Positions 14,601 through 41,120 of a stretch of 64,000 nucleotides of DNA are shown in pieces. This stretch comes from a virus. The notes beneath the pieces are model-generated. The model worked only from the letters and a program-made list of their open reading frames with translations. It searched no databases and was not told where the DNA came from. How positions within the stretch are numbered: position 1 is the first letter of the stretch; each line of letters opens with the position of its first letter. Made by a program: the position numbers and the translations under genes. The stretch lies in IMG/VR virus record IMGVR_UViG_3300009151_000031; one strand, given 5' to 3'.

Positions 14601-16377
14601 CATTGAACGCATCGGTTGGCGTAGTTATAATATAACTAACCGATGTAGTTGCTTGTTGACCATAATTGAATAATTGTAAATTTGGTTCAAATTCAATAAT
14701 GCTACGTCGTGCAGATATGTCATTTCCGTAGTCTGCTACAGAATTATTATACTTGGCAGTAGACGTAATTACATCTCGATGGAACCAACGATTGTATCGC
14801 GACCATGGGTTACGGTCTTGACTAGCTCTATTAATTGTAATGTAATCAGGAGATTTGTTAATGTTTTGACCAAATGATTCTGGTACAATTAATTCATCAA
14901 CTGGGACCAGGTCTATGCCTGTGCCAACTCCCTCAACATAGTAATCTTTGTTAGTGTATGTACTTGGAGTAACAGAGCTATCAAAATGAATTTTCATCCC
15001 ATTGGCAAAAATTACTCCATTGGGGCTGGTATATCCTGCACTACCAATAATATCATTGGGTACATCAATGGTACTCGTTGAATTATCAACTAATTTTATT
15101 TGCCCTGTAAATTGAGGGTTACTACTATCTTGGTAATATAGATAATTAACGCTGGCTGTCATTACCGGCACAATCTGGTAACGCATGTTATTATCTAACC
15201 AAAACTGATTACTTGCATAAGTCTGGCCAGACGAAATAAAAACTTTTTGCTGAGGTTGTATTTGAGTGTCAGGCACAATCTGAAGTACTGAATCGGTTGC
15301 GCTAATACGTACTATATTAAGGCGCCAGATATTTGATCTAGTTGCTTTAGGAATAATACCAGTAACTGGATTGGCATTTGGGTTTGCTTTACCTGTAGCT
15401 AAATCTGGCGGCAACGGATCTGTTGGGGTAGTCCAATCTGTGTCCGCAACTTGGCCGCCTACAAATACAATAGTTTTGTTTTGTAAGTTATTGTTAATAC
15501 CATCCAATCCTGTTGGAAATTTGCTTATGAAGGTACTTAGTAATTGATTTTGTATATCTGTATATTTAAATGCCACTGCGGCATCGGTGCTACCGGTAGT
15601 AGGTCTAATAATTGGCATGTTAACATAAAAGTCTTGCGCTGTTGCCAACGGAACTTTAAATGTAATATCTCCGCTGTCAGTGCCGTTGTTAGTTACGCCA
15701 AATACCTGACGAGTTGTGACTGTAGAAATATTGGGATCTTGACCGGACGTACCAGGACTAGTTTGTATCCAGAATTTAAAACTTGGTTGATTAATTTTAA
15801 ATGTATATGTTCCGCCACGTGCCAATGTAAGTTGTGTATTAGGGTGCGGGCCTATGCCAGTGAATGTATATCCGCCAACTGAAGTGCTACGTGTTACTTC
15901 ATATGTAGCTTGATACGGAACTTGATTAGTTGAAAGAGATACAGAAGCCGGGCCATTGGGTAACCAATAGTAATTATAATAATTTACAAACTTATCATAA
16001 TCAAATTGACCATCGTAATTATAACTGTCAGATGAAAATAGTCTTTGATGGTTTGTTGTTAATAACTGACTGCTACCAGTATTTGTTGCAACGCTATTTA
16101 ATAAATCCAGGTATCCAGCAGTAAATTTAATATTTTTATTTTCATCTGTTACTACTACCCCGGATTCCAATTGGTAATTAGATCTTGATGTAATTGATTC
16201 GGGCACATAGTTATCACCTAGTTTATATGTAGGAGCAAACTTGCGTCCGATGTATCCGTTAATTGGAGTGTTTATTGCGCCAGTATACAACTGGTCCATG
16301 GTAGCACCAAGGAAACGTTTATTCGTGTCTGTGCGAAAAGCTTCTGGTAAAAAATTAATAGTGTTTAGTAGTGCCAT
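5620..16377 (-). CDS. Giant baseplate wedge protein (T4 gp7-like position) with an FG-GAP-like propeller
   Basis: 3585-aa ORF coupled to gp6 (TAATG overlap). It has LNYINEVKPYRTVIR and GTGAKGYATI..GSGY repeats typical of T4-like wedge proteins, plus FGxS/AIxx...GAPG repeats. Confidence 0.7.
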   Translation of the reverse strand: MALLNTINFLPEAFRTDTNKRFLGATMDQLYTGAINTPINGYIGRKFAPTYKLGDNYVPESITSRSNYQLESGVVVTDENKNIKFTAGYLDLLNSVATNTGSSQLLTTNHQRLFSSDSYNYDGQFDYDKFVNYYNYYWLPNGPASVSLSTNQVPYQATYEVTRSTSVGGYTFTGIGPHPNTQLTLARGGTYTFKINQPSFKFWIQTSPGTSGQDPNISTVTTRQVFGVTNNGTDSGDITFKVPLATAQDFYVNMPIIRPTTGSTDAAVAFKYTDIQNQLLSTFISKFPTGLDGINNNLQNKTIVFVGGQVADTDWTTPTDPLPPDLATGKANPNANPVTGIIPKATRSNIWRLNIVRISATDSVLQIVPDTQIQPQQKVFISSGQTYASNQFWLDNNMRYQIVPVMTASVNYLYYQDSSNPQFTGQIKLVDNSTSTIDVPNDIIGSAGYTSPNGVIFANGMKIHFDSSVTPSTYTNKDYYVEGVGTGIDLVPVDELIVPESFGQNINKSPDYITINRASQDRNPWSRYNRWFHRDVITSTAKYNNSVADYGNDISARRSIIEFEPNLQLFNYGQQATTSVSYIITTPTDAFNDYEGKTTASIDGIHLVNGDTIVFAKDFDTAIVNEVWEVQYQSIINSPYLTLNKVASDPVLPGQNVLVTKGSHKGYTFAFDGSTWTQSQQKTNVNQAPLFDIVDNDGYSFSDITVYPGTTFAGTKFFNYAVATSGTNDSLLGFPLTYQTFNNIGDIVFNNYYDTDSFSTSNGKISVNTGYLVKNIGLDKTEKLTNWATSAEPTLQFQVFTKFFDGYVIELNGVQTAFVQIDVLPVDEQTVPHLKVYLNNKLLVNEMDYKQIKYGVYHAIVFTTIPAINDKIDVKIFSTESSKLAYYEVPDNLDLNPLNENFKSITLGQLRTHYNKLIENTTSDPSNPIPIQDNYLKDQGGTLRQHSAPLVYALSFLNDPTVSFVDAITLAKKEYTKFKHKFLTLCNTTSNINYNNPSIGVDVILQNINSLKNSSFPWYYSDMVPQGNGFSTVTYTVLNARQVNYEINSLFNNTILSNRAVLVYVNGIQQTVGVDYTFNKISPTIIFTREFAAADVANKTQIVIRDYGNTDGNYIPETPTKLGLYPKFLPEIYLDNTYQTPTMVIRGHDGSITPAFGTYDQTTGIYTKDFRDDYLLELERRIYNNIKADYNNNEIDLYNTIPGRFRKGDYSLTEFNQVISQSFMNWVGTNNVNYTENKFYDVNNPWTWNYGSCPDVIDGSNLQGSWRAIYNYWFDTDTPNLTPWIMLGFSSKPLWWESRYGNGPYTSGNILLWEDLESGYIWNDGAPYTDDRFARSGLTKFIPVDSAGNLIDPTQIPLIKKYHSSTSSDAFSSGQHSPAEVAWRRSSDYPYSVQLTLALLRPAQYFATQLDTSRFFKSPQTGQFSNASNRKIAPNLLTVNGNSASGTVDRTSGYINWIADSIKNTGIDPISTLTSYFTNTSVKLNYKVGGFTDKSIITVSAEQTSPGSTSGSVIIPDTNYNIYLNKSVPVGSAVYSAVIVEKTTTGWSVTGYDPTNPFFTIIPSIADNKKQPLTVNGLTISLYQSSESSVSVIPYGTVFSSIQQVADFIVSYQRYLTAIGFQLDTYNTDLQEEQNWLLSIKELMYWSQQGWNTTSVIVLNPVATSLTLLTAGVIVDEVTNTSNGNKILDQNFAPIKNNNFNIVRTNSAVNGNRFKISTLNGTTICYAKLNVTAYEHVLVFDNVDDFGDIIYIPSTGTRQSRLKIAGTKTGAWDGSLSAAGYIYSDPNIDVWQSGRDYNLGDVVQYNNFYYTATQKISAGANFIPTLWTQIPYDSIQTGLLQSFGLNAQQFSNFYDVDNPPTNETLQKYSAGLLGFRQRQYLTDLGISIPTQTKFYQGYIKQKGTMNAITALTKANFNNVSGEISVYEEWAFNVGKYGNLNNNIYKDFILDQSVFNTNPAVFTSAGTYSAANVIVSLNGNALCTNSNVYTASNTLVTTTSLYSNRVDPVYMTDLPDVGYVNLNDVDYTIFDITKPELDLTALGAGDYAWVAKDIENNWNILRVNESNLTAESLTYILDSNAQLTFNYTHTFSVGDILVLKYFSSAFDGVYEVIGVPNTTNVIIQIDNTRLDKLTSISPLQTLIRALTITGSGIVYTLDSAKINSLSDFKNHTIPKNGWITGDTVWVDNASVDGWGVYTFKQPWSTKNRSQVTGNISTAGQFGSAVTISSDNTYIFSGSPGSKQVFVTPITTGSTQTLTSIDSNFGTAIDSRGNLLSVASSSNVYIYRQNGNVITALQTITGANLVGNVTSISMSTDGNILAIGGNTSVHIYKANTTPSSANVKYVLANVIQNTGSTTNIVKTNATGNVVIIGAPYATNGNTQAGNVYVYGGNLITNAFSKTQSTLTSQYNNQSANFGASIDIDSTGTNLYIGVPGSLKSGIANGVVERYTLGGNTYTFTESIAHPANEIGKFGTSISVSANGNVLAVGSIGSPAEEHTTFDDDETVIDSDTTNFVDYIYNSGATYLFEPIGNSYAYIQELEAQLANNDNYGFAIDVTSNVIVVGAPGTTNNYGAGYVFKNSTSAKAWNQTRTQMPIVDIDSIGRTLIYNKNNDNLLAALDYIDPAKGKILNAFGQDIDFQRGTDPALYNAGTNVVNQTIHWGPNQVGTIWWNLDTVRYINYEQDALIYRLNHWGDQFPGSSVDVYQWIASSQLPSDYTSDGVPMYPDNSSYSTYGYVTPNGVVNATYYYWVKNIQTVDKSKHNSIYSIAEAIKNPQSQGIPYTAVLRNDTVAVYNASHTLVGQSSVIQLGASNVQAKQTALVHSEYALVQEGNPTSQLPENIIAKINDSLSGIDRDGNPVPDPALPPGRRYGLSIRPRQSIVIDVVTALYNVITLVNAKLLAYPVTQRKVMTILNSSEQYPVSSLSTYLISVETFDELGYVDTNLISSGYSVLVKSDSNNLTKWAIYTWDGTNWSVATRPNGSPWVQTYKTNLYWQYADWYDATFDPTTTINVTVANNLEFGKLTLQPNTYIKVTDSGNGKFVIYYIDSNLEQTTVGIQDGTVQMQGIETDIPALELRQILLSMQKEIFIDDLAGNYNELFFVLIKYILTEQKNIDWAFKTSFISATQSIRKLQEFPSYIPDNQNFYLNYINEVKPYRTVIREYVVDYIGNDSYVSDITDFDLPPYWDAKLGVYRSPSGEQSYDATTLSASNSIYSQWNNNYKYRVVDTVIDLPGSGYLTAPQIVITGGGGTGAKGYATINGSGGLATIVITDAGSGYTSIPDIIINGTGSGAQARAVLKNVYDGNNNGHNLVRSVATTIKYDRVTYAGLSYPGVIIEGGNLRTYSGTTVTVGSPASNVASGFDATISSLYTSSLGVNPADIIVDGGEYVGRFSSYAPEELLPGRMYDSLNMKVFSNVNPGTNDYAFRIFTDINQVTTYYRISAANTTALASNLAITDSNIHVVNSSVLPIPNPGLAIPGVVFIGGEKITYYTNDTVNNVLGQIRRAVDGTPGVSLHLTGARVVDSSLTQVIPISTPTYANISGNLTMQDTSWYTPGVSNATTGTGLVNSTTVQAQFLLASPGYTP

Positions 16378-27755: not shown

Positions 27756-28748
27756 ATGTACAAGTTTGAGGATTTACGCAGGCTAGAAATCGAGCCAACA
27801 AACACATGTCAGGCTCGATGTCCTCAATGTTTACGCACCCCTGCAGATGGTAGTGTTAACCGTACACTCAAAGACGAATTAAGTTTAGCGGTGATTAAAC
27901 AACAAATTCCAGTAGAGTTTTGGCAACAATTAACCAGTATCAACTTCCAAGGTAGTACAGGCGATGCATTAGCATACCCCGATCTTGTAGAATTAATACA
28001 CTACATGAAACAGCACACGCAAGCACAGTTTAGTATACACACAAACGGCGGACTCGGATCACGTACAACATGGCAAGGGTTAGCAGACGTACTAGATGCC
28101 AACGACAAAGTCATATTTGGCATTGACGGATTAGCTGACACTAATCATTTATACCGTGTGGCTGTAGACTTTGCTACTGTAGTTAAAAATGCAACAACAT
28201 TTATTACAGCAGGTGGTACCGCACATTGGCAATATATCACTTTTAAACATAACCAACATCAAGTTGCCGAAGCCGAACAACTAAGCAAAGATTTGGGCTT
28301 TAAGAGTTTTTACCTGCGTACTTCTGGCAGATTCACTAATGCCAACTACCAAGACGTTTATGCCAACGGTCGAGTTACACATCGCATTGAGCCCAGCGAC
28401 ATTTCATTTGAGCAACCTATACACTTTGAACATAGACTTAAAAGTGATATTAAAACAGCTAAAATTTCTTGCGAAGCTATTCATACTAAATGGGTTGCTA
28501 TCTACGCAGACGGCACAGTATGGCCCTGCTGCCATTTGATGGGCTGGCACCAAACACACACTCATAACATTTCTAAATTAATTAATCGTAAGCTAGATGA
28601 TGTTATAGAAGATTACACAAACATAAGTTTGCACACGCATACCTTAAACGAAATTATTAATAGCCCGGTGTTTCAAACAAATTACCCCACTAGTTTTGAT
28701 AGCGCACAGCCTATTCCGGTATGCGTAAGTCACTGTAGAAAACAATGA
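27756..28748 (+). CDS. Radical SAM protein with a C-terminal SPASM/twitch-like domain (type A1)
   Basis: TCQARCPQC (CxxxCxxC), GDAL, TNGG and IDG motifs; C-terminal C...IYADGTVWPCC...CVSHC. Confidence 0.9.
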   Translation: MYKFEDLRRLEIEPTNTCQARCPQCLRTPADGSVNRTLKDELSLAVIKQQIPVEFWQQLTSINFQGSTGDALAYPDLVELIHYMKQHTQAQFSIHTNGGLGSRTTWQGLADVLDANDKVIFGIDGLADTNHLYRVAVDFATVVKNATTFITAGGTAHWQYITFKHNQHQVAEAEQLSKDLGFKSFYLRTSGRFTNANYQDVYANGRVTHRIEPSDISFEQPIHFEHRLKSDIKTAKISCEAIHTKWVAIYADGTVWPCCHLMGWHQTHTHNISKLINRKLDDVIEDYTNISLHTHTLNEIINSPVFQTNYPTSFDSAQPIPVCVSHCRKQ

Positions 28749-30169
28749 ACGTAAAAGAATTAAAAGCCAAATTAGAAAAAGACTACACCTTATTGGTGTT
28801 TGCTGACTTTGCAGAAGTTAGCCATACGCCAACAGCCGCTTATAAGTTATTAGAAAGTATACGCAAGGATACGTTTGCTGACCGTGAGCGTATTGTGTTT
28901 TACGGCAACTATCCAGATATAGAATTAGTTAACCACGTGGCTAAAGCTAGAGAGTTATTAGATATCGGTGAGTTCTTTTGTATTTGGCAAAATGAAATAA
29001 CAGATGCACTAGCACCAGGTACTGGATATCGACTTGCTGATACTGTGTGTCCGTTGCTGTGGAGTCATTTAGAAATCAGGCACACCGGCGACGTGTACCC
29101 GTGCTGTGTTAATACTGTACCTGTTGGCAACGTAAACGAAAGTTCATTGGTTGAAATATTTAACAATGATAAAATGGATTTGTTACGTAAACAAATGTCT
29201 ACCGGCGGACGTCCGGACAGTTGTGACCATTGTTGGCGTTTAGAAAAACAAGGGTTGTCAAGCAATCGTCAATGGCACATGGGCAAGAATGCTCAGGATT
29301 TTAATTCACGATGGTACGATGATGTACAAATTCGCAGTTTGGATCTAAAGCCCAGCAACACCTGTAACTTCAAATGCCGTACTTGTAATCCCAGTAACAG
29401 CTCATTGATTGCGGCCGAAGTTAAACAATTTAGTTCTGCGTCTATAGCTGTCAACATTGCTGCCAATCGATGGAACGGGTATAGAGAATATACCTGGAAA
29501 GAATTGGATAATATCTTGCCCACCATAGAAAATTTAGACTTTTTTGGCGGAGAACCGTTTTTATTAAAAGAACTACGAACTTTTATACAAACAGCCGTTG
29601 ATACAGATCATTGCAAACACATACGGTTACACTTTAATACCAATGGTAGTATATTTCCAAACGACATAATTGATAACATACAAAAGTTCAAAGAAGTTGA
29701 TATAGCAGTAAGTATAGATGACATTGGATCCAGATTTGAGTTGACTCGCGGAGGCGCATGGTCTAATGTTGAGGCCAACTTACTCCAATTTAAAGAGTTA
29801 GAATCAGAGAACTTTAAAGTTTACATCTTTCCAACAGTTAACATCCAAAATGTATTGTACCTAGATGAACTACTTGGCTGGGCCAAACAAAATCAACTAG
29901 TATACAAATTTAATTTTCTTGAGTTTCCACGGTATTATAATATCAATTCAATGACTGACCGAGCACGTGAATTAGTTATTAACAAATACCAGGATTCGTC
30001 TAATCTACAACTACAAGCCCTGGCCAATCGTGTTAAAAACTCTGCTGGCAGTGACGGCAAGATGTTTGTCAAAAAAATGAAATGGTTTGACTATATTCGA
30101 AATCAAAACTTTGGCAGTACTCACAACGAAATTGCCCAAGCCATGGGTTACGACTTGCTTTCTCCATGA
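28745..30169 (+). CDS. Radical SAM protein with an N-terminal SPASM-like domain (type B1)
   Basis: CPLLW..LEIRHTGDVYPCC and CDHC precede TCNFKCRTC, GGEPF, TNGS and SIDD. Confidence 0.9.
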   Translation: MNVKELKAKLEKDYTLLVFADFAEVSHTPTAAYKLLESIRKDTFADRERIVFYGNYPDIELVNHVAKARELLDIGEFFCIWQNEITDALAPGTGYRLADTVCPLLWSHLEIRHTGDVYPCCVNTVPVGNVNESSLVEIFNNDKMDLLRKQMSTGGRPDSCDHCWRLEKQGLSSNRQWHMGKNAQDFNSRWYDDVQIRSLDLKPSNTCNFKCRTCNPSNSSLIAAEVKQFSSASIAVNIAANRWNGYREYTWKELDNILPTIENLDFFGGEPFLLKELRTFIQTAVDTDHCKHIRLHFNTNGSIFPNDIIDNIQKFKEVDIAVSIDDIGSRFELTRGGAWSNVEANLLQFKELESENFKVYIFPTVNIQNVLYLDELLGWAKQNQLVYKFNFLEFPRYYNINSMTDRARELVINKYQDSSNLQLQALANRVKNSAGSDGKMFVKKMKWFDYIRNQNFGSTHNEIAQAMGYDLLSP

Positions 30170-30184
30170 CACTTGTAGTATAAT
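30155..30184 (+). promoter_or_regulatory. Sigma70-like promoter for gp46, possibly giving a leaderless mRNA
   Basis: TTGCTT-18 nt-TATAAT; the ATG follows 8 nt later with no Shine-Dalgarno. Confidence 0.6.
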
Positions 30185-30192
30185 AATAATCT

Positions 30193-31962
30193 ATGTTCAA
30201 AATTAAAACTTTAACCGTTAAGAATTTTATGAGTGTGGGTAACTCTACACAAGCAGTAAACTTTGATCGTCAAGACTTAACATTGGTACTAGGCGAAAAC
30301 TTGGACCTCGGAGGAGACGATTCGGGTGCCAGGAACGGAACAGGTAAGACCACAATTATTAATGCGTTAAGCTATGCCATGTACGGCAATGCTCTTACTA
30401 ACATTAAGAAAGATAACTTAATCAACAAGACTAACCAAAAGAACATGATGGTCACAATTGATTTTGAAAAAGACAGTATCAACTACCGCATTGAACGTGG
30501 ACGTAAGCCCAACACAATGAAGTTCTTTGTTGGTGATACAGAAAAAGAAATTACTGATGATGCCCAAGGAGACAGTCGCGAAACACAAGCAGAGATAGAA
30601 CGTATGCTAGGCATGAGCCACGACATGTTCAAGCATATTGTTGCGCTCAATACTTATACAGAACCGTTTTTAGCACTTAAAGCAAATGAACAGCGTACTA
30701 TCATTGAACAATTATTGGGCATTACACTATTGAGTGAAAAAGCCGATAACTTAAAAGAACAGAACAAAGCAACTAAAGATGCGATACAACAAGAAGAATT
30801 TCGCATTAAGGCTGTAACTGATGCTAACGTTCGTATACAAGAGCAAATCGATTCATTGAAGCGTAGACAAACTTTATGGAGCACTAAACATGCAGAAGAA
30901 ATACAGAAACTACAAACGGCGATCGAAGAGCTACAGAGAATTGACATTGCGGCCGAAATTCAAGCACACTCGGCGTTTAAGACTTGGGATCAAACCCGAA
31001 AGGACATCAACGAACTATCGTCGGCGATTACGAGATCCAAGATGGATCTTGGTCGAGAAGAAAAGGCTATTGCCAAAACATCAGCTGAACTTGTTTCGCT
31101 GGAAAATCATACGTGTCATACCTGCGGGCAGGAATTCCATGACACGAAGCACCAACAAGTACTGGGACAGAAGCAGAAAGACTTATCAACAGCAGAAGAG
31201 AATCAGAGAACCCATGCTACCATGTTGGCTGAACTACAATCAGCTCACGATGGGTTGGGCAAACTAGGTCCGAGACCCGAAACATTTTATGACAAAGAAG
31301 CCGATGCTATCCATCACCAAGCTAGTGTAGATAATTTAATTACTCAGCTTACATCTAAATTAGATGATACTGACCCTTATGCAGAACAAATTGTTGAAAT
31401 GCAATCTACAGCAGTGGAAGAAGTTACGTACGATGTAATAAATGAGCTTACCAATATCAAGGAACATCAAGAGTTCTTGTTAAAACTGTTAACCAACAAA
31501 GATAGCTTTATCCGCAAACGTATCATTGATCAAAACCTAAGTTACTTAAACGCACGATTGGGACAGTACTTAGATCGCATCGGTTTGCCACATACTATTA
31601 AGTTTAACAACGATTTAACTACAAGCATCACAGAGTTAGGCAGAGATTTAGACTTTGACAACTTGAGTCGCGGTGAACGTAATCGTTTAATCTTGTCACT
31701 GAGTTGGGCATTCCGTGATGTATGGGAAAGTTTGTATCAACCAATTAACTTGTTGTTCATCGACGAGCTAGTAGATTCGGGAATGGATAGTAGCGGCGTT
31801 GAAAACTCACTGGCTATCCTTAAGAAGATGTCTAGGGAAAGTAACAAGAGTATTTGGTTAGTATCACACAAAGACGAACTTAGTGGGCGTGTAAACAATA
31901 CGCTACACGTAGTTAAAGAAAATGGATTTACAAGTTACAACACCGACATCGAAATTACTTAA
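30193..31962 (+). CDS. gp46: Recombination endonuclease ATPase subunit gp46 (Rad50/SbcC)
   Basis: Walker A NGTGKTT, coiled coil with CHTC zinc hook, LSRGE signature, Walker B FIDE and H-loop VSH. Confidence 0.95.
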   Translation: MFKIKTLTVKNFMSVGNSTQAVNFDRQDLTLVLGENLDLGGDDSGARNGTGKTTIINALSYAMYGNALTNIKKDNLINKTNQKNMMVTIDFEKDSINYRIERGRKPNTMKFFVGDTEKEITDDAQGDSRETQAEIERMLGMSHDMFKHIVALNTYTEPFLALKANEQRTIIEQLLGITLLSEKADNLKEQNKATKDAIQQEEFRIKAVTDANVRIQEQIDSLKRRQTLWSTKHAEEIQKLQTAIEELQRIDIAAEIQAHSAFKTWDQTRKDINELSSAITRSKMDLGREEKAIAKTSAELVSLENHTCHTCGQEFHDTKHQQVLGQKQKDLSTAEENQRTHATMLAELQSAHDGLGKLGPRPETFYDKEADAIHHQASVDNLITQLTSKLDDTDPYAEQIVEMQSTAVEEVTYDVINELTNIKEHQEFLLKLLTNKDSFIRKRIIDQNLSYLNARLGQYLDRIGLPHTIKFNNDLTTSITELGRDLDFDNLSRGERNRLILSLSWAFRDVWESLYQPINLLFIDELVDSGMDSSGVENSLAILKKMSRESNKSIWLVSHKDELSGRVNNTLHVVKENGFTSYNTDIEIT

Positions 31963-32914
31963 TCACAATCGCATACACATTGAGATTAGCAGTAAGTGTA
32001 CATTAAAATGTCCGCGATGTCCCCGTACGGAATTAAAACCCGAGCTAGTAAACAGAGAAATTAGTCTACCAGAGTTTCAGCGGGCATTTACTGCCGACTT
32101 GTTAAAAGAAGTACACGAAATAGTATTTTGCGGCGACATTGGCGACCCAATATATGCACGAGACTTTTTAGAAATTGTACGTTACATTAAGACATCTAGA
32201 TTTAATACCAGTTTGGTTATTGTTACCAACGGTAGCTATAAGTCTGAACTGTGGTGGACCGAATTAGGATCACTGCTAGGTCGTAATGACAAAGTTACGT
32301 TTAGTGTTGATGGGTGGAATCAAGAATCAAACGAGCGGTACAGAGTAAACAGTGATTTTAAAAGTATTATTGCAGGTGCAAAAGCATTACGGGCGGCAAG
32401 TGCCTGTTCAATGAACTGGTCTGCAATTTATTTTAATTTTAACGAAGATAAAATGCCTTGGATACAGGATTTAGCACAAGATTTAGGATTTGATACATTT
32501 GAAGCTGTGCTTAGTTCAAAGTTTGACGGTATGTATTTGATAAATGGCATTGACCCATTGAAACCAATACGTGGGTACGTTGCTAAAAGTAGCAAGTACG
32601 AAGTTCATACAGTTAGTTTAACCAATCATATTCCCATTGTGTTTCATAATACACGTGAACGACATCCGTGGGCTCGTTGTGCCAACGGCACTAAAGAAAT
32701 GTTTATTAATGTTGATGGATTAGTATTTCCGTGTCCTTGGTTTAATAGTGGCTACATGGAAAACGACTTTGTAGACAAGTATCGCGACCAGTTAAGTATT
32801 AAAAATCGTACACTTAAAGAAATACTAGATGATCCTTTGTGGAATGAGATGTACACCAGGTTTGAAATTGCTCCATTGCCTATTTGCTTATTGAAATGTA
32901 AAAATGCCCAATAA
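31922..32914 (+). CDS. Radical SAM/SPASM protein (type A2, paralog of 27756..28748)
   Basis: KCTLKCPRC, GDP, TNGS and SVDG motifs; C-terminal C...FINVDGLVFPCPW...CLLKC. Confidence 0.9.
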   Translation: MDLQVTTPTSKLLNHNRIHIEISSKCTLKCPRCPRTELKPELVNREISLPEFQRAFTADLLKEVHEIVFCGDIGDPIYARDFLEIVRYIKTSRFNTSLVIVTNGSYKSELWWTELGSLLGRNDKVTFSVDGWNQESNERYRVNSDFKSIIAGAKALRAASACSMNWSAIYFNFNEDKMPWIQDLAQDLGFDTFEAVLSSKFDGMYLINGIDPLKPIRGYVAKSSKYEVHTVSLTNHIPIVFHNTRERHPWARCANGTKEMFINVDGLVFPCPWFNSGYMENDFVDKYRDQLSIKNRTLKEILDDPLWNEMYTRFEIAPLPICLLKCKNAQ

Positions 32915-34208
32915 AGATATATTCTGCAACATTCCGTGGTACGAGCTACATATCAATCATGATGGTAGTTACGATCTGTGCGGCTGTATGAGCGAGCTTA
33001 TTACACAAACAGATCAGGGCAAAGAGTGGAACATCTTTAATTACCCTGTAGAGGAATACTGGCAAAGCCGTCGTTTACGTGACGAACGATTAAGTAAGTT
33101 AGGTGACGTGCCTAATCCTGCTTGTGGTGTTTGCCAACATCAAGATCAATTAGGTAGTCATAGCAAACGTATTAAAGAAAACTTAAAGAGTGTATTGTTT
33201 TACGATCGAAACTTTTATAAGAGTTTTGAACAAAGCCCACACAAGGCCGCATTTGATTACAGCCTCGACAATGACGGCGCTACTGTTACTCGACCTGTTA
33301 GTTACCATTTGAGCTTGGGCAATGAATGTGACTTAGCCTGTGTGATGTGCAGTCCTAACAGTAGCTACAAACTTGCCAACGACTATAAAGCATTGGGGTG
33401 GATTACGGATTCACGCAGATTAAATTGGACAGATGATCCTGTAATATGGAATAACTTCTGTCAAACACTACTTGCTACTGATTTAGTCAGCCTACATATT
33501 ATCGGCGGCGAACCTACTATAAACAAGCGATTTACACAACTAATTGACTTGTTTGTTGCCAATAACCGCACCGACTTTAGCTTTAGTTTTACTACTAACT
33601 GTATGCACAATATAGATCACTTGTGGGATAAATTAAGTAAATTTAAACGAGTTGAAATTGGTATGAGTGTAGAAAGTATAAACTTTTCCAATGACTATGT
33701 TCGATATGGTGGCAGTATTGATACTATATTAAGCAATATAAAACATTTTAAAGCCACTGCACCAAAAAATGTAGCGTTTGTTGTGCGTACTGTGCCTACG
33801 TTGCTGACCATTAATTACTATAGTCAGTTAATTGATTGGTGTTTAGACAATGATTTTTTAATAGACAGTTATTTTGCAACAGATCCAAAATGGCAACAGA
33901 TTAGATTGTTGCCCGATTCTATAAAGATGCAGTTACAAACAGAATTTCAAATTCAACTTGATAATTATGTATCGCTAAGTGCGTGTCGTATAACAGGATT
34001 GACTAATTTTAGAAATCAGGCACACGTAATAGAAAATTTAATATCTGAAATACGTGCCGCCATTGCTAGTTTAGCATTAGGCAATCAAGACCCAGACCTT
34101 ATAGCCGAGAGTGTGTTAAAATTCAAGCAACTAGACACTATGCGTAACAACAACGTAGTTAAGAATTTTCCAATGCTACAAACTTATTTTGAATCAAATG
34201 GTTACTAA
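32904..34208 (+). CDS. Radical SAM protein with an N-terminal SPASM-like domain (type B2, paralog of 28745..30169)
   Basis: CNIPW.ELHINHDGSYDLCGC and CGVC precede ECDLACVMC and GGEPT. Confidence 0.9.
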   Translation: MPNKDIFCNIPWYELHINHDGSYDLCGCMSELITQTDQGKEWNIFNYPVEEYWQSRRLRDERLSKLGDVPNPACGVCQHQDQLGSHSKRIKENLKSVLFYDRNFYKSFEQSPHKAAFDYSLDNDGATVTRPVSYHLSLGNECDLACVMCSPNSSYKLANDYKALGWITDSRRLNWTDDPVIWNNFCQTLLATDLVSLHIIGGEPTINKRFTQLIDLFVANNRTDFSFSFTTNCMHNIDHLWDKLSKFKRVEIGMSVESINFSNDYVRYGGSIDTILSNIKHFKATAPKNVAFVVRTVPTLLTINYYSQLIDWCLDNDFLIDSYFATDPKWQQIRLLPDSIKMQLQTEFQIQLDNYVSLSACRITGLTNFRNQAHVIENLISEIRAAIASLALGNQDPDLIAESVLKFKQLDTMRNNNVVKNFPMLQTYFESNGY

Positions 34209-34641
34209 TTTACAATTTGCTATAACACTAAAACCTGTTGGGTATGAAAATACTTGGCCCGAGTTTTATCTTAAAATAGATGAAGAATTACAAGACGTAG
34301 GTGTGTTAACCGAAGAACGGGCGTATAATTTTGATGTTGAGCTAGAGGATGGCGCACATTGTATTACTGTTGGGTTTACTAACAAAGAAGATGCCGACAC
34401 TATAGCCATAGACAATGAAATTATTGCCGACAAAGCTATTATAGTTGAGAACATTACAATAGAGGGATACGAGTTTAAAGATTTTTTGTACAGGGGTGTT
34501 TACTATCCCGCAGGTAGGTGGCATTCGAACAGCAATTATTTAAGTTGGAACGGCGAGTGGAAGTTAGAGTTTACTACTCCAATTTTTACTTGGTTACATC
34601 AAACACAGCATTTGGGTTGGATTTACGAGAAAAATTTGTGA
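34189..34641 (+). CDS. Hypothetical acidic beta-sandwich protein coupled to the radical SAM cluster
   Basis: 150-aa ORF overlapping the B2 stop; DKAIIVENITIEG and YLSWNGEWKLEFTTPIFTWL. Confidence 0.7.
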   Translation: MNQMVTNLQFAITLKPVGYENTWPEFYLKIDEELQDVGVLTEERAYNFDVELEDGAHCITVGFTNKEDADTIAIDNEIIADKAIIVENITIEGYEFKDFLYRGVYYPAGRWHSNSNYLSWNGEWKLEFTTPIFTWLHQTQHLGWIYEKNL

Positions 34642-34669: not shown

Positions 34670-35098
34670 ATGTCATGGATTTACGAAAATACTCAAGTAG
34701 AAACTTTACCCGAAGATTGTGTTGGTTTTGTTTATTTGATCACAAATAACCTAACCGGCAGGAAGTATATTGGCAAAAAATTAGCAAAATTTAGTAAAAC
34801 CACCTATAAAATGGTTAAACTAAAAAATGGTAACAAGAAGCGTAAAAAAATTCGAGGTAAAACAGATTCAGATTGGCAAACATATTATGGCTCTAGCCCA
34901 GAACTAACAAAAGATGTGTTAGAATTGGGCGTTGAAAACTTTAGCAGAGAAGTACTCTTTTATTGTAAATCAAAATCAGAATGTAGTTATATTGAAGCGA
35001 GAGAACAATTTGCTCGCAGAGTATTAGAAAGTAACGATTATTATAACGGACACATACAAGTTCGTGTACATGGCTCACACATTATCAACAAGATATAG
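34670..35098 (+). CDS. GIY-YIG nuclease, Seg-like catalytic domain only
   Basis: GFVYLITNNLTGRKYIGKK, YYGSS, GVENFSREVL, conserved Glu (YIEARE) and YYN. It has a Lys/Arg-rich insertion and no C-terminal DNA-binding domain. Confidence 0.85.
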   Translation: MSWIYENTQVETLPEDCVGFVYLITNNLTGRKYIGKKLAKFSKTTYKMVKLKNGNKKRKKIRGKTDSDWQTYYGSSPELTKDVLELGVENFSREVLFYCKSKSECSYIEAREQFARRVLESNDYYNGHIQVRVHGSHIINKI

Positions 35099-35410
35099 TT
35101 CTTCAGACAACAAGTCTAATTAGTAAAATCACCCAAACAGTATTGGCTCGCACAGGCTTAAAAACGTGTGCTCACGACAACTCGATAATAAGAGGGACGG
35201 AAGTCTTGCCGCTGTAGCAAGCACTCAATCACTATCCTTAACAGGACGAAGATCGCCAATTGCCGCGGTTTGATTGTTTGAAGAACTAGATATGGCTAAA
35301 AAGATGTACTAGCGATAGTACAGGTTTAATATATATGTTAGCGTATGTGTATTAAGCTGCCGTTGTGTAAGACAGAATGAGTAGGTACCGGACAACCGCC
35401 TGCGAAATTG

Positions 35411-35460
35411 ATTATACTTAATTATAGTAGATTATAGTTAATTATAGACAATTATAGTTC
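35411..35460. repeat. Five tandem 10-bp units ATTATA(g/c)nnn
   Basis: attatactta attatagtag attatagtta attatagaca attatagttc. Confidence 0.9.
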
Positions 35461-35618
35461 TAACGCTAAGTGACTGTGCTACTCGGATAATGCAGATCTT
35501 AACTTTGCCCTGTGCGGGCAAAGTGTGACCAATTAATCTGGATAATACTAAAAAACAACAATACTTCTAAATAAATGTTCTAAGAAGAAAAGTATCTATG
35601 AGCTTTAGCGAAATAGAT

Positions 35619-35637
35619 AGACTTACGCAGTAAGTCT
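35619..35637. terminator. Perfect hairpin at the convergent-transcription junction (possible terminator or RNA 3' end)
   Basis: AGACTTAC-GCA-GTAAGTCT; no long U tract. Confidence 0.4.
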
Positions 35638-35656
35638 TAAATGAAACAACACACAA

Positions 35657-35875
35657 TTAGAAGAATGGTAAACCCGACTTCTCAGTTGTTTCTAGATTAG
35701 TTTTAATAATATCGTTGATAATTTCTCTGTCTGAAGATGATAACATCATGGCATCATTATAAGAAATACTGCCTCGCATATACCAACAGGTTGATAAGAG
35801 ATCTTTTTTTATGGCTTTTGCATCTTTGTCAAGTCGACTTAACTCCTCAACAATCTCATCGTTAGATAATGACAA
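35657..35875 (-). CDS. Small baseplate/tail assembly protein (gp51-like position), probably the -1 frameshift extension of the upstream gene
   Basis: 72 aa from TTG with no RBS; CWYMRGSISYNDAMMLS..DREII. The frame is open back to the TTTTTTC slippery site. Confidence 0.7.
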   Translation of the reverse strand: MSLSNDEIVEELSRLDKDAKAIKKDLLSTCWYMRGSISYNDAMMLSSSDREIINDIIKTNLETTEKSGLPFF

Positions 35876-35880
35876 AAGCC

Positions 35881-36729
35881 TTAGCCGAAAAAATTTGTCT
35901 GTTCAAAAACAAACGGTGTTACAAAATCTTTGCCACATTCTTCATTAGAGCATACCATATTAATATTGGCGTACGATGCATTTTCAGTTTTAATTTTCTC
36001 TAGTGCGGTTTTGACCGCCTCCCAAACAGATCTATCGCAGTTGTTTAAAAATTCTGTAATAAACTCTACATTTTCTACTACAATGCCGTCACTAGTTTTA
36101 ATTGACCCAATACTTTTACTAATTTGATTAAGTCCAGTTTCAATTAATTTTCTAAACATCTCTTCAAATTTTGCTGTTTTTTCATCGTCGGGCATATCAG
36201 TGTCACGTACCAAGTTCATAATACGTTGTTCTTCAAAATTAAGTAAACCATTTTTATTATATTCTTCATAACTTTGTGGCTTCAACGAAATTTCTAAATC
36301 AGCTATTTTAATTGGAGTGTCCCAATTGCCTATTCCAATTTTATCAATCATGACTGATAAATCAAGTCCTCGCTCGTTTTTAGTATTGCACACCGGGCAT
36401 AAGCACGTAAAGTCTAATTCGTTCCCATAACTAGCAAGTCTGATTGCAATTAATAGTTTGTCTAAATCAACCAACGGCATTTTCCACGCATTTTTAATAC
36501 TTGGGCAACAACTTTCAATTACAGATGCAGTACTAGAACCATTCATTAATGCATCTGGTGTTTTCATTGTAATTTCGTCACGGGCAGTCATTGCGTAAAC
36601 TGGAATTTCTCCAGTAACTGGCAATTCTATACTTCCATCTGACCACCAACGCCCTTGACTTGGTAATCGTACGTACAAAATCGGCTGTCTAAAATGCTTT
36701 GTTAACGGGTTATTAGATAAACTGTCCAT
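35881..36729 (-). CDS. gp26: Baseplate hub assembly chaperone gp26-like / tail assembly chaperone
   Basis: NPL..FRQP.LY.RLPS.G, MTARDEI..KTPDALMNG, DLDKLLIAIRLASYG and CPVC...C..EEC zinc-binding motifs. A GGAG RBS favours the ATG at 36729 over 36744. Confidence 0.75.
   Translation of the reverse strand: MDSLSNNPLTKHFRQPILYVRLPSQGRWWSDGSIELPVTGEIPVYAMTARDEITMKTPDALMNGSSTASVIESCCPSIKNAWKMPLVDLDKLLIAIRLASYGNELDFTCLCPVCNTKNERGLDLSVMIDKIGIGNWDTPIKIADLEISLKPQSYEEYNKNGLLNFEEQRIMNLVRDTDMPDDEKTAKFEEMFRKLIETGLNQISKSIGSIKTSDGIVVENVEFITEFLNNCDRSVWEAVKTALEKIKTENASYANINMVCSNEECGKDFVTPFVFEQTNFFG
35887..35893 (-). other. Putative -1 ribosomal frameshift site T TTT TTC
   Basis: Frame 0 reads AAT TTT TTC GGC TAA; the -1 frame reads TTT TTT CGG CTA AGG CTT TTG TCA into the 35657..35875 ORF. 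Confidence 0.65.
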
Positions 36730-36743
36730 ATAATAGAACTCCA

Positions 36744-36768
36744 TAAATAGTTGATATATGTGTACTTA
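36744..36768. promoter_or_regulatory. Divergent late promoters: TAAATA (+, 36744-36749) and TAAGTA (-, 36763-36768)
   Basis: The motifs lie between the divergent gp26-like and tape-measure-like genes. Confidence 0.55.
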
Positions 36769-39419: not shown

Positions 39420-41120
39420 ATGGCCGGTTGGAAAAAATACTTTAAAACCAGTAACTTACCTAGTAACATCAGCCCCTTGGGTGGCGGACGCATTGCTGAC
39501 CCAGGCATGCGTAACTATCAAAGTCAATTACCTGAAGTTTATATTGGACATCCAAATCGCGTTGAGCGATATAACCAGTATGAACAAATGGACATGGACA
39601 GCGAAGTCAATGCGGCACTAGATATTCTTGCTGAGTTTATGACTCAAAAGAATGAAGAGAACCATACATCGTTTACCTTAAAGTTTAAAGAAACTCCCAG
39701 TGACAACGAAGTCAAGATCTTAAAAGAACAGCTACAACAATGGGTAGCCTTGAACGAATTAAACAAACGTTCATTTAAAATTGTACGTAATACATTAAAG
39801 TACGGAGATCAAGTATTCATCCGTGATCCAGAAAACTTTAAACTGATGTGGACAGAAATGTCCAAAGTTACCAAAGTTATTGTCAACGAAGGTGAAGGCA
39901 AAAAGCCTGAGCAGTATTTGATCAAAGACTTAAACCCTAACTTTCAAAACTTAACAGCTACAGCAGTAGCAACAACAGACACCTATACCAACCATCCACA
40001 AACTGGCGGCCCGAGCGGTGCTTATGTGCAACCACAAACACCATTTGGTGGTGGAAGTCGTTTTAGTCATGCCAAAAACGAAGCTCCTATCAACGCAGAA
40101 CACATTGTTCATGTGAGTTTAACTGAAGGCCTAGACGTATTTTGGCCGTTTGGTAATAGTGTATTAGAAAACATCTTTAAAGTATTCAAGCAAAAAGAAT
40201 TGTTAGAAGATTCAATTATTATCTATCGTGTACAACGTGCTCCAGAGCGCCGTATTTTCAAAATTGACGTGGGCAACATGCCAAGTCATATGGCCATGGC
40301 ATTTGTTGAACGTATTAAAAACGAAATTCATCAACGTCGTATTCCTACGCAAAGCGGAACAGGTAGCAATGCCAACATGATGGATGCCACATACAATCCA
40401 TTAAGTACAAACGAAGACTATTTCTTCCCAACCACAGCAGACGGTCGTGGCAGTAGTGTTGATGTACTACCTGGCGGTGCTAACCTAGGTGAAATTACAG
40501 ACTTGCGATTCTTTACCAACAAGTTATTCCGTGGTTTGCGTATTCCTAGTAGCTATTTGCCAACTACAGCTGAAGATGGTACAGCGGCCTATACAGATGG
40601 TCGTGTAGGTACAGCACTTATACAAGAATGGCGCTTTAACCAGTATTGCTTGCGTTTACAATCAATGATTGCTGACCGATTGGATGCAGAGTTCAAGCTG
40701 TTTATGCGTTGGAGAGGCTTTAACATTGATGGATCCTTGTTTGATCTACAGTTTAATCCGCCACAAAACTTTGCACAGTATCGTCAAGCAGACATAGATA
40801 GTGCTAGAATTGCTACATTTACACAGCTAGAAGCATACCCTTACCTAAGCAAACGCTGGTTAATGAAGCGTTATTTAGGCATGACTGAACAAGAAATTGC
40901 AGAAAACGAAATGGCCTGGGCAGAAGAAAAAGGTGATGTAGAAACAGCACCAGTTGATGCACCAGGACTTCGTAGCGTTGGTGTAAGTCCGGGTGGCATT
41001 CAAAGTGACATTGAAGGACTAGGCCCAGAAGGCGGCGATGCCAGCGGAGGTGAAGACCTAAGCGGCGCCCCAGGCGCAGATGGTCCTGCAGGGGTTGGTG
41101 TACCAGCACCAGCACTTTAA
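39420..41120 (+). CDS. gp20: Portal vertex protein gp20
   Basis: LLEDSIIIYRVQRAPERRIFKIDVGNMP, EDYFFP...GRGSSVDVLPGG.NLGEITD and LRIPSSYL are T4 gp20 family motifs. Confidence 0.95.
   Translation: MAGWKKYFKTSNLPSNISPLGGGRIADPGMRNYQSQLPEVYIGHPNRVERYNQYEQMDMDSEVNAALDILAEFMTQKNEENHTSFTLKFKETPSDNEVKILKEQLQQWVALNELNKRSFKIVRNTLKYGDQVFIRDPENFKLMWTEMSKVTKVIVNEGEGKKPEQYLIKDLNPNFQNLTATAVATTDTYTNHPQTGGPSGAYVQPQTPFGGGSRFSHAKNEAPINAEHIVHVSLTEGLDVFWPFGNSVLENIFKVFKQKELLEDSIIIYRVQRAPERRIFKIDVGNMPSHMAMAFVERIKNEIHQRRIPTQSGTGSNANMMDATYNPLSTNEDYFFPTTADGRGSSVDVLPGGANLGEITDLRFFTNKLFRGLRIPSSYLPTTAEDGTAAYTDGRVGTALIQEWRFNQYCLRLQSMIADRLDAEFKLFMRWRGFNIDGSLFDLQFNPPQNFAQYRQADIDSARIATFTQLEAYPYLSKRWLMKRYLGMTEQEIAENEMAWAEEKGDVETAPVDAPGLRSVGVSPGGIQSDIEGLGPEGGDASGGEDLSGAPGADGPAGVGVPAPAL

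What the first reader, a model, noticed from the sequence alone, without database searches (positions are those of the whole stretch)
35100..35640. ~550-nt ornate, pseudoknotted non-coding RNA candidate in the largest non-coding gap
Seen in the sequence: no ORF, but dense base pairing. Local hairpins are AGT-CTTGC/GCAAG-C-ACT (35202-35225), TGTACTA-GCGA-TAGTACA with a GNRA loop (35305-35322) and ACTTTGCCC-TGTGC-GGGCAAAGT (35502-35524). A three-way junction is closed by CAATCA/TGATTG (35226-31/35271-76) and holds TCCT-TAAC-AGGA and ATCGC/GCGGT. A 15-bp helix (35323-37/35344-58) needs five G-U pairs, so it works as RNA on the + strand. Its whole loop TTAGCG (35338-43) is complementary to CGCTAA (35464-69), giving a pseudoknot. 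A long-range stem AGAACTA/TAGTTCT (35282-88/35455-61) is present, and CGCACAGG (35149-56) is complementary to the hairpin loop region CCTGTGCG (35509-16). Established knowledge: large ornate phage-associated RNAs of this size class exist (GOLLD, ROOL) and their functions are unknown. Inference: this is a functional large ncRNA, either a member of such a class or a new one.
Basis: partly seen in the sequence, partly recalled or inferred. Interest (0 to 1): 0.9.

Follow-up and report, generated by a model that had tools for sequence, protein, structure and literature searches.

The report
Full-length Polynucleobacter-1 twin-box phage RNA
The gene-free stretch behind a small nuclease gene of this uncultured T4-like phage encodes a real, multiply knotted non-coding RNA of about 410 bases; it belongs to the Polynucleobacter-1 motif described in 2010, whose function is unknown, and its undescribed last part carries the same 7-letter word twice.

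Summary
The observation largely holds. Window 35138-35552 (+) is a conserved, structured non-coding RNA. Its first 135 nt (35145-35279) match Rfam RF01718, Polynucleobacter-1, at 94.4 bits against a cut-off of 37.

About 190 viral contigs of uncultured T4-like phages carry the whole RNA. In 98 non-redundant copies, 16 helices and three pseudoknots covary, and G-U pairs far outnumber A-C (511 to 66), so the RNA is read from the + strand.

The last two hairpins (35594-35637) look like the terminator of the convergent minus-strand operon. The ATTATAG repeats are a variable expansion hairpin.

The undescribed 3' third holds two 24-nt modules. Their 7-nt cores (GGAUAAU at 35485-91 and 35540-46) are identical within each genome but differ between lineages, and no internal partner was found. 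Function is unknown. The best guess is a trans-acting scaffold that shows one word twice to one partner.

This scan has found the same RNA family on other DNA many times.

The parts
34670..35098 (+). Upstream 142-aa stand-alone GIY-YIG (SegE-like) gene, linked to the RNA
   Evidence: Pfam PF19835, E 3.7e-32, covers residues 3-129. It is a full-length match to phrog_447, a 148-position profile, so it is not truncated. It lies on the same strand within 120 nt upstream of the RNA in 137 of 167 testable loci, and within 2 kb in 165 of 167.
35138..35144 (+). Conserved leader word RCRGUWA directly 5' of the RNA; in many relatives it contains the GIY stop codon
   Evidence: Alignment of upstream flanks. 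The profile hit starts at 35138.
35145..35279 (+). 5' domain = Rfam RF01718 Polynucleobacter-1: P1 35150-54/35167-71, P2 35181-83/35192-94, P3 35203-09/35217-22, P4 35226-30/35272-76, P5 35232,35235-37/35244-46,35248, P6 35250-56/35265-70
   Evidence: cmscan 94.4 bits, gathering score 37, E 5e-19, model positions 1-141. Covariation.
35145..35158 (+). PK0: 35145-47 pairs with 35156-58 and crosses P1; this pseudoknot is not in the Rfam structure
   Evidence: Pair 35146/35157 is GC 63 / AU 35 in 98 sequences.
35172..35200 (+). P1b: 35172-73 pairs with 35199-200 and encloses P2; not in the Rfam structure
   Evidence: CG 79 / UG 11 / AU 5 / UA 3 and CG 78 / UG 12 / GC 7.
35306..35321 (+). P7 hairpin with GNRA-type loop GCGA
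   Evidence: Three to five pair types per position. Already in the 2010 alignment.
35324..35357 (+). P8 long hairpin; its loop 35339-44 forms PK1
   Evidence: 12 of 13 pairs change on both sides. G-U pairs are frequent and A-C pairs rare.
35463..35468 (+). 3' strand of pseudoknot PK1 (pairs with 35339-44)
   Evidence: Variants UUAGCG/CGCUAA, UAGUAU/AUACUA, UGAUAU/AUAUCA, CAGCAU/AUGCUG. 100% of cells paired and 5 of 6 pairs compensatory.
35360..35398 (+). Px: 35360,35362-66 pairs with the P9 loop 35392-96,35398, giving a third pseudoknot
   Evidence: Nearly invariant; a few compensatory changes (UA 94 / CG 4; GC 94 / AU 2 / GU 2).
35382..35402 (+). P9 hairpin (35382-85/35399-402) around the invariant GGUACCGGACAACCGCC
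   Evidence: Closing pair is GC 74 / CG 12 / UA 9.
35374..35461 (+). P10: AGAAU 35374-78 pairs with GUUCU 35457-61 and encloses P9 and the variable insert
   Evidence: 68 of 90 sequences pair at 5 of 5 positions and 21 at 4 of 5, with more than 25 different compensatory variants.
35403..35456 (+). Variable expansion hairpin holding the 10-nt ATTATAG repeats
   Evidence: TRF period 10, 4.9 copies. Present only in a subset (window, L025, L111, L037, L003). Replaced by 6 nt in most relatives and by an unrelated hairpin in L042.
35470..35493 (+). Repeat module A (GUGAC-N7-ACUC-GGAUAAU-GC); twin box A = 35485-35491
35503..35523 (+). P12 hairpin between the two modules; its loop is variable
   Evidence: 100% of cells paired. 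UG 23 and no AC at the closing pair.
35525..35548 (+). Repeat module B (GUGAC-N7-AUCU-GGAUAAU-AC); twin box B = 35540-35546
   Evidence: Identity covariation with module A at offset 51.
35553..35593 (.). Variable A-rich linker, which reads as a U-tract on the minus strand
   Evidence: Poorly conserved. Mean of 7.2 A in the 12 nt 5' of P13.
35594..35637 (-). P13 (35594-99/35613-18) and P14 (35619-26/35630-37): probable intrinsic terminator of the convergent minus-strand operon, possibly bidirectional
   Evidence: The stems covary, but A-C 50 exceeds G-U 21, the reverse of the core. The terminator scan calls 35637-35619 on the minus strand. The hairpins sit at the end of minus-strand genes wherever genes were inserted, and are absent where a + strand gene follows the RNA.

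Best explanation
Window 35138-35552 (+) encodes a full-length member of the Polynucleobacter-1 RNA family, a roughly 410-nt stably folded non-coding RNA of uncultured T4-like phages. It has three parts. The first is the catalogued 5' domain (P1-P6). The second is a compact knotted core (P7, P8, P9 and P10 with pseudoknots PK1 and Px). The third is a 3' domain in which hairpin P12 is flanked by two single-stranded 24-nt modules.

The RNA is most likely made as the 3' continuation of the GIY-YIG gene transcript, because in many relatives it starts at that gene's stop codon. It most likely acts in trans. The folded body would serve as a scaffold that presents two copies of one lineage-specific 7-nt word (here GGAUAAU) to the same partner twice. 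That partner could be an RNA or DNA word, or a co-evolving dimeric protein.

Shown: family membership, conservation, strand, helices, pseudoknots, linkage to the GIY gene, and the identity covariation of the two boxes.

Inferred: co-transcription, trans action, and bivalent binding. The partner and the biological role are unknown.
For: Membership: RF01718 at 94.4 bits over the full model. The tail helices and pseudoknot match the 2010 alignment.

Conservation: 194 profile hits. About 190 viral contigs span model positions 3-442 wherever the contig allows.

Structure: 97.6% of cells paired, 55 of 93 pairs compensatory, 0 of 500 shuffles reach the observed values. An unbiased mutual-information scan of 98 sequences recovers the same helices plus PK0, P1b, PK1 and Px. 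P10 is supported.

Strand: G-U 511 against A-C 66 in the core.

Linkage to the GIY gene:
- 165 of 167 RNA-selected loci have the GIY gene upstream on the same strand.
- 71 of 76 protein-selected loci have the RNA downstream.
- The RNA begins at or within a few nt of the stop codon in many loci.

Twin boxes:
- The strongest mutual information in the whole RNA is identity at offset 51: 309/360 UU 44, AA 42, GG 10; 303/354 GG 60, AA 38; 307/358 GG 77, AA 21.
- On a tree built without these columns the pairs change at least 19, 10 and 16 times, and agree in 98/98, 98/98 and 96/98 sequences. Independent pairs go the same way 9 of 9, 8 of 8 and about 7 of 8 times.
- Divergent lineages carry other words, again as twins: GAGACAAG/AAGACAAG, GGUGUCAAG/AGUGUCAAG, and AGCGAAAG twice in the Polynucleobacter chromosome.
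- Fixed differences between the two modules persist, which argues against gene conversion.
- Site 303 is not correlated with its near neighbours, which argues against linkage.
- No internal Watson-Crick partner was found.
Against: The transcript, its ends and its abundance are therefore unproven.

No partner for the boxes was found:
- no complementary word within 5-10 kb of the loci;
- no enrichment of the word or its complement in the 64-kb window;
- no association with any GIY protein column beyond background.

Identity covariation could also come from non-canonical parallel contacts or from contacts between RNA copies. No promoter or + strand terminator was identified.
Confidence: 0.55

Rival explanations
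1. RNA partner or guide of the adjacent GIY-YIG nuclease. The 142-aa protein has no DNA-binding domain, and the RNA would supply target recognition through the twin boxes.
For: The gene-RNA linkage is tight in both directions. The RNA starts at the gene's stop codon in many loci. The protein is a bare nuclease domain with conserved catalytic-type residues. The boxes behave like programmable words.
Against: The protein family (phrog_447) is a full-length small protein, not a truncation. Homologues in cultured cyanophages, OM43 phage Melnitz and phage C48C1 have no RF01718 match and no large gap downstream. Other genes are inserted between gene and RNA in 28 loci, and 2 loci have the RNA without the gene. 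Two loci have the gene with no RNA within 2.3-2.5 kb. No protein column tracks the box states. No RNA-guided GIY-YIG enzyme is known (from my own knowledge).
Confidence: 0.08
2. Cis-acting 3' UTR element of the GIY-YIG transcription unit. It would act as an mRNA 3'-end protector, a processing platform or an insulator at a convergent junction, with no trans function.
For: Its position is directly behind the gene and at a convergent junction in about half of the loci. No promoter of its own was seen.
Against: About 410 nt with three pseudoknots and invariant single-stranded blocks is far more than 3'-end protection needs. The RNA keeps its sequence when other genes are inserted on either side. 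The twin boxes evolve in step, which a passive structure does not explain. A related RNA sits in a bacterial chromosome in a different gene context.
Confidence: 0.12
3. Self-assembling RNA-only multimer of the ROOL/GOLLD type, with the twin boxes forming contacts between protomers.
For: It is large, ornate, multiply knotted and phage-borne, with no partner found in cis. GOLLD, ROOL and OLE form homo-oligomers (PMC12286853 abstract).
Against: There is no sequence or structure homology to those families. Canonical kissing contacts need complementary or palindromic words, and the boxes are neither. In-register identity would need parallel like-with-like pairing, which has little precedent (from my own knowledge).
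Confidence: 0.1
4. DNA-level element: a replication origin or iteron array, a packaging site or a recombination site.
For: Five 10-bp-phased ATTATAG units, in an AT-rich region between the replication/recombination and structural modules.
Against: The repeats are a lineage-specific insert, absent from most relatives. Compensatory changes with G-U 511 against A-C 66 show selection on a + strand RNA fold, not on duplex DNA.
Confidence: 0.02
5. Catalytic RNA: a self-cleaving ribozyme, or a remnant of a group I intron that once carried the GIY-YIG gene.
For: GIY-YIG genes often ride in group I introns of T4-like phages (from my own knowledge). The core is pseudoknotted and has invariant junction nucleotides.
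Against: There is no Rfam match to group I or II introns, RNase P or any self-cleaving class at E up to 10. There is no split host gene: the flanks are a complete gene on one side and a convergent gene on the other.
Confidence: 0.03

Closest known systems
Polynucleobacter-1 RNA motif (Rfam RF01718; Weinberg et al. 2010, Genome Biol 11:R31, PMC2864571)
   Same: The 5' 135 nt score 94.4 bits over the whole model. The authors' raw alignment also contains P7, P8, P9/P10 and the P8-loop pseudoknot. They noted that the motif lies downstream of genes of family GOS11034. One of their scaffolds encodes ...YYNGHIQVRVHGSHI... just upstream, which is the C-terminus of the GIY-YIG protein found here.
   Different: Rfam models only the first 141 positions. 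The paper found no copy in any sequenced phage, whereas here the RNA sits in a T4-like phage and in about 190 viral contigs. As far as I could find, the following are not described: the 3' third (two modules with twin boxes around P12), PK0, P1b and Px. The 2010 pseudoknot carried no covariation support ('?'), and it now has strong support.
GOLLD and ROOL large ornate RNAs
   Same: More than 400 nt, many helices and pseudoknots, phage-associated, function unknown.
   Different: No match to either covariance model. This RNA is smaller and is not next to tRNA genes (no tRNA in the window). Oligomerisation was not tested.
OMEGA/HEARO guide RNAs of IscB and TnpB
   Same: A structured RNA directly beside a small nuclease gene, with short fast-evolving words.
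   Different: The nuclease fold is different (GIY-YIG). There is no HEARO match. The variable words are internal and duplicated rather than a terminal guide. Gene and RNA occur apart.
Multi-site sponge or regulator RNAs such as CsrB/RsmZ and twin-seed sRNAs such as RsaE (comparison from my own knowledge)
   Same: Repeated identical single-stranded words displayed on a folded body. The main-clade box GGAUGA resembles a CsrA site.
   Different: There are only two copies.

Membership tests
Polynucleobacter-1 RNA (RF01718) | Score at or above the curated gathering score of the covariance model | tested here: met
   94.4 bits against 37; E 5e-19; model positions 1-141 of 141.
Polynucleobacter-1 RNA (RF01718) | Helices P1-P3 plus a three-way junction (P4-P6), kept by compensatory change | tested here: met
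   Helices 2 and 4-8 pair in 95.6-100% of cells. One search gives 2-5 pair types per position.
Polynucleobacter-1 RNA (RF01718) | The 'tail' of the original motif: two hairpins, a nested stem pair, and a pseudoknot from the second hairpin loop | tested here: met
   P7, P8, P9/P10 and PK1 are present and covary. They match SS_cons and SS_cons_1 of the 2010 file.
Polynucleobacter-1 RNA (RF01718) | Location downstream of a GOS11034-family gene | tested here: met
   The GIY-YIG gene ends 47 nt upstream. The same protein C-terminus is encoded upstream in a 2010 scaffold.
GOLLD / ROOL / HEARO / OLE | Match to the family covariance model | tested here: not met
   No match at E up to 10 in 34900-35900 with permissive filters.
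Group I intron | Match to the intron model, and a host gene split by the element | tested here: not met
   No Rfam match. The flanks are a complete GIY gene and a convergent 72-aa ORF.
RNA-guided nuclease system | Obligate co-occurrence of nuclease and RNA | tested here: not met
   Homologues in cultured phages lack the RNA. Two loci have the RNA without the gene and two have the gene without the RNA.
RNA-guided nuclease system | Physical complex of protein and RNA, and RNA-dependent target choice | not testable with these tools
   The complex predictor takes proteins only. No biochemical data are available.

The most novel reading that the evidence does not exclude
The twin boxes are a programmable address. 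The folded RNA would read one 7- to 9-nt nucleic-acid word twice, in a host or phage RNA or DNA, either as a new kind of bivalent RNA reader or as the targeting subunit for the neighbouring GIY-YIG nuclease. A variant of this reading is that the two boxes pair with each other like-with-like in a parallel-stranded motif, which would have little precedent in natural RNA.
Probability: 0.07. Interest if true: 0.9.

Novelty: new member of a known kind. Interest (0 to 1): 0.5.

Why it matters
Polynucleobacter-1 has been an orphan motif since 2010 and is catalogued as a 141-nt sRNA. It is in fact a roughly 410-nt, triply knotted RNA, carried at a fixed place by a large clade of uncultured freshwater and marine T4-like phages. 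At least 590 viral contigs encode the linked protein.

That puts it among the few large ornate RNAs whose functions are open, and it is a good subject for cryo-EM and chemical probing. The twin boxes give a concrete handle for experiments: whatever reads them must change with them, so box swaps and pull-downs can be designed directly. For this window alone the result is ordinary, because it is one more member of a known family.

Tried and rejected
- A blastn search of the gap against 50,697 phage records found no match.
- An Rfam search of GIY loci from cultured phages (Melnitz, P-HM2, C48C1) found no RF01718.
- A pattern scan of genome contigs gave almost only chance hits. One short contig in a metagenome-assembled genome is real.
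- The roughly 23 viral loci of the first pattern scan that hold no window-like genes were chance matches.
- The search for an internal partner of the boxes found nothing. The best complementarity is 0.76, to 35271-81, which overlaps the 3' strand of P4.
- The search for the reverse complement of each locus's own box within the locus returned only the boxes themselves.
- GGATAAT and its complement are not enriched in the window: 7 found against 8.3 expected.
- Box states show no association with GIY protein columns: normalised mutual information 0.27-0.32, below the best values of many other RNA columns.
- A tRNA-anticodon-loop reading of the boxes was rejected, because the complement would put a pyrimidine at loop position 37.
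- The RNAalifold suggestion of 35229-32 with 35526-29 and 35275-82 with 35483-90 rests on invariant or G-U-rich pairs, and the second helix takes the 3' strand of the covarying P4. I did not adopt it.
- PDB sequence search with the GIY protein found no match.

Full report
**Context.** The window comes from a T4-like myophage.
- It encodes a gp20-type portal (39420-41120), a baseplate hub protein (35881-36744, minus strand), a gp46-like SMC ATPase, and several radical-SAM/SPASM genes.
- The closest portals of cultured phages are only about 50% identical.
- The gap 35099-35656 lies between a 142-aa SegE-like GIY-YIG gene on the + strand and a convergent 72-aa ORF on the minus strand.
- It holds no ORF above 35 aa and is the largest gap in the window.

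**Check of the observation.** The stretch folds better than shuffles on both strands, with z = -3.84 on + and -2.72 on -.

Rfam gives one match above threshold in the whole window: RF01718, Polynucleobacter-1, at 35145-35279 (+). It scores 94.4 bits against a cut-off of 37 and covers the full model. Nothing else matches in 34900-35900, even at E up to 10. In particular there is no GOLLD, ROOL, HEARO, RNase P or intron match.

**Relatives.** Two pattern scans of viral contigs brought in more than 230 loci. A profile built from alignment A1 finds 194 hits. About 190 viral contigs carry the RNA over its whole length, and in the window the hit spans 35138-35640. The pattern matches in bacterial genomes were chance, apart from one short contig.

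**Structure.** I tested a hand-set structure of 93 pairs in 17 helices on 23 relatives.

| Measure | Structure | 3' partners slid by 1-3 columns |
|---|---|---|
| Cells forming a standard pair | 97.6% | 32-42% |
| Pairs with a change on both sides | 55 of 93 | 9-19 |

None of 500 shuffles reaches the observed values.

An unbiased mutual-information scan over 98 copies that are less than 97% identical recovers the same helices. In window coordinates they are:

| Helix | Coordinates | Note |
|---|---|---|
| PK0 | 35145-47 / 35156-58 | |
| P1 | 35150-54 / 35167-71 | |
| P1b | 35172-73 / 35199-200 | |
| P2 | 35181-83 / 35192-94 | |
| P3 | 35203-09 / 35217-22 | |
| P4 | 35226-30 / 35272-76 | |
| P5 | around 35235-37 / 35244-46 | |
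| P6 | 35250-56 / 35265-70 | |
| P7 | 35306-11 / 35316-21 | |
| P8 | 35324-37 / 35344-57 | |
| PK1 | 35339-44 / 35463-68 | GC 93 / AU 5; CG 86 / UA 12; GC 77 / AU 19 |
| Px | 35360-66 / 35392-98 | |
| P9 | 35382-85 / 35399-402 | |
| P10 | 35374-78 / 35457-61 | more than 25 compensatory variants |
| P12 | 35503-10 / 35516-23 | |

In these helices G-U pairs outnumber A-C by 511 to 66, so the fold is selected on the + strand.

**What fails.**
- The pairing of 35149-56 with the P12 loop pairs in 79% of cells.
- Counted together, these two pairings are no better than shuffles (66 of 500 shuffles reach the observed percentage of paired cells).
- The P12 loop varies independently of P1.
- The ATTATAG repeats (35411-59) sit in a variable insert between P9 and the 3' strand of P10. 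Most relatives have 6 nt there and one has an unrelated hairpin. The repeats are therefore an expansion hairpin, not a conserved iteron array.

**The 3' end.** P13 (35594-99/35613-18) and P14 (35619-26/35630-37) covary, but here A-C (50) exceeds G-U (21), the reverse of the core.
- The 12 nt before P13 are A-rich, which reads as a U-tract on the minus strand.
- The terminator scan calls P14 on the minus strand.
- Where genes were inserted behind the RNA on the minus strand, the hairpins sit at the end of those genes. Where a + strand gene follows, the hairpins are missing.

I read P13 and P14 as the terminator of the convergent operon, possibly working in both directions. That leaves the RNA proper at about 35138-35552.

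**What was already known.** Weinberg et al. 2010 describe the motif as lying mostly downstream of GOS11034-family genes, with a 3' half that is 'not always detected', and found it in no sequenced phage.

Their raw alignment marks an ACTUAL_MOTIF that runs through P7, P8, P9/P10 and a 7-bp pseudoknot from the P8 loop. At that time the pseudoknot had no covariation support. The modelled SEARCH_MOTIF is only the 5' part.

One of their scaffolds shows the rest of the RNA as unaligned flank. Its upstream coding sequence ends ...YYNGHIQVRVHGSHI..., which is the GIY-YIG protein found here.

So roughly two thirds of this RNA is published. Only one paper in the library names the motif. A 2023 survey of structured RNAs in viral contigs reports candidates of at most 151 nt.

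**What seems undescribed.** PK0, P1b and Px appear to be new, and so does the 3' domain. In that domain, two 24-nt modules of the form GUGAC-N7-AYUCK-GGAUGAW-RC (35470-93 and 35525-48) flank P12.

The strongest mutual information in the whole RNA is not Watson-Crick. It is identity between the modules at a constant offset of 51.

| Column pair | States in 98 sequences | Minimum changes on the tree | Sequences that agree | Independent pairs going the same way |
|---|---|---|---|---|
| 303/354 | GG 60, AA 38 | 19 | 98/98 | 9 of 9 |
| 307/358 | GG 77, AA 21 | 10 | 98/98 | 8 of 8 |
| 309/360 | UU 44, AA 42, GG 10 | 16 | 96/98 | about 7 of 8 |

The tree was built without these columns.

Divergent lineages use quite different words, again as twins: GAGACAAG/AAGACAAG, GGUGUCAAG/AGUGUCAAG, GAGUCAAG/UAGUCAAG and GGAUAAU. 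The Polynucleobacter chromosome copy has AGCGAAAG twice.

Three simple explanations do not fit.
- Gene conversion does not fit, because fixed differences between the modules persist.
- Linkage does not fit, because site 303 does not track its near neighbours.
- An internal partner does not fit, because no complementary segment exists inside the RNA, within 5-10 kb, or in excess in the window.

In this window both boxes read GGAUAAU (35485-91 and 35540-46).

**The neighbouring gene.** The protein is a full-length member of a 148-position family, phrog_447, which is annotated there and in GenBank as 'NAD synthetase'. That label is probably an error, since Pfam places it in SegE-type GIY-YIG.

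| Loci selected by | Testable loci | Result |
|---|---|---|
| the RNA | 167 | gene within 120 nt upstream in 137; within 2 kb in 165; absent in 2 |
| the protein | 76 | RNA downstream in 71; no RNA within 2.3-2.5 kb in 2 |

In many loci the RNA starts at the stop codon. On the other hand, 496 cultured phage records, mostly cyanophages, encode homologues at under 60% identity. The three I inspected have neither the RNA nor room for it. No protein column follows the box states.

The linkage is real and fits co-transcription. It does not show a nuclease-RNA machine.

**Mechanism.** The best reading is a trans-acting scaffold RNA that shows one lineage-specific word twice to one partner. I hold that part at about one chance in three. 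That this is a real + strand structured RNA of the Polynucleobacter-1 family is close to certain. The rivals, in order, are:
- a cis-acting 3' UTR element;
- a self-assembling RNA like ROOL;
- an RNA partner of the GIY-YIG nuclease;
- a ribozyme;
- a DNA-level site.

**Earlier notes of this scan.** I looked these up after my own analysis. They report the same 'twin-box' extended Polynucleobacter-1 RNA in many other genomes, and my results agree with them.

Noticed in passing
window 35594-35637 (minus strand): Two covarying hairpins followed, on the minus strand, by a U-rich tract. They look like the intrinsic terminator of the gp26-like/72-aa operon rather than part of the RNA: A-C 50 against G-U 21.
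   Followed up: yes
window 34670-35098: This GIY-YIG protein family (phrog_447) is labelled 'NAD synthetase' in PHROGs and in many GenBank phage records. Pfam places it in SegE-type GIY-YIG, so the label looks like a propagated error.
   Followed up: partly
window 35657-36744 (minus strand): The 72-aa ORF directly follows the 287-aa baseplate-hub (gp26-like) ORF. Another first-reader note proposes a -1 frameshift joining them. The pair is conserved together in most relatives.
   Followed up: no
window 27756-34641: Radical-SAM/SPASM genes lie before and after the gp46-like gene. The content of this block varies greatly among relatives: some have none and some have one to three.
   Followed up: no
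L094 / L097, between P6 and the GGCUAAAAAG block: An extra hairpin of about 35 nt (…GCGATTGTTTACCATGGGTGTAAACAAT…) is inserted in the linker of the RNA, and a second insert lies before P13. This shows where the fold tolerates expansions.
   Followed up: no
L105, L263; L403, L407: These are exceptions to the gene-RNA linkage. Two loci have the RNA but no GIY gene in the DNA held, and two have the GIY gene but no RNA within 2.3-2.5 kb downstream.
   Followed up: partly
window 5620-16377 (minus strand): A single 3585-aa ORF lies in the structural region, possibly a giant fibre or decoration protein.
   Followed up: no
window 35822-35900 (minus strand): Weak partial match to the 3' half of RF01718 (14.5 bits, E 1.6) inside the baseplate gene. 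I take it as chance.
   Followed up: no
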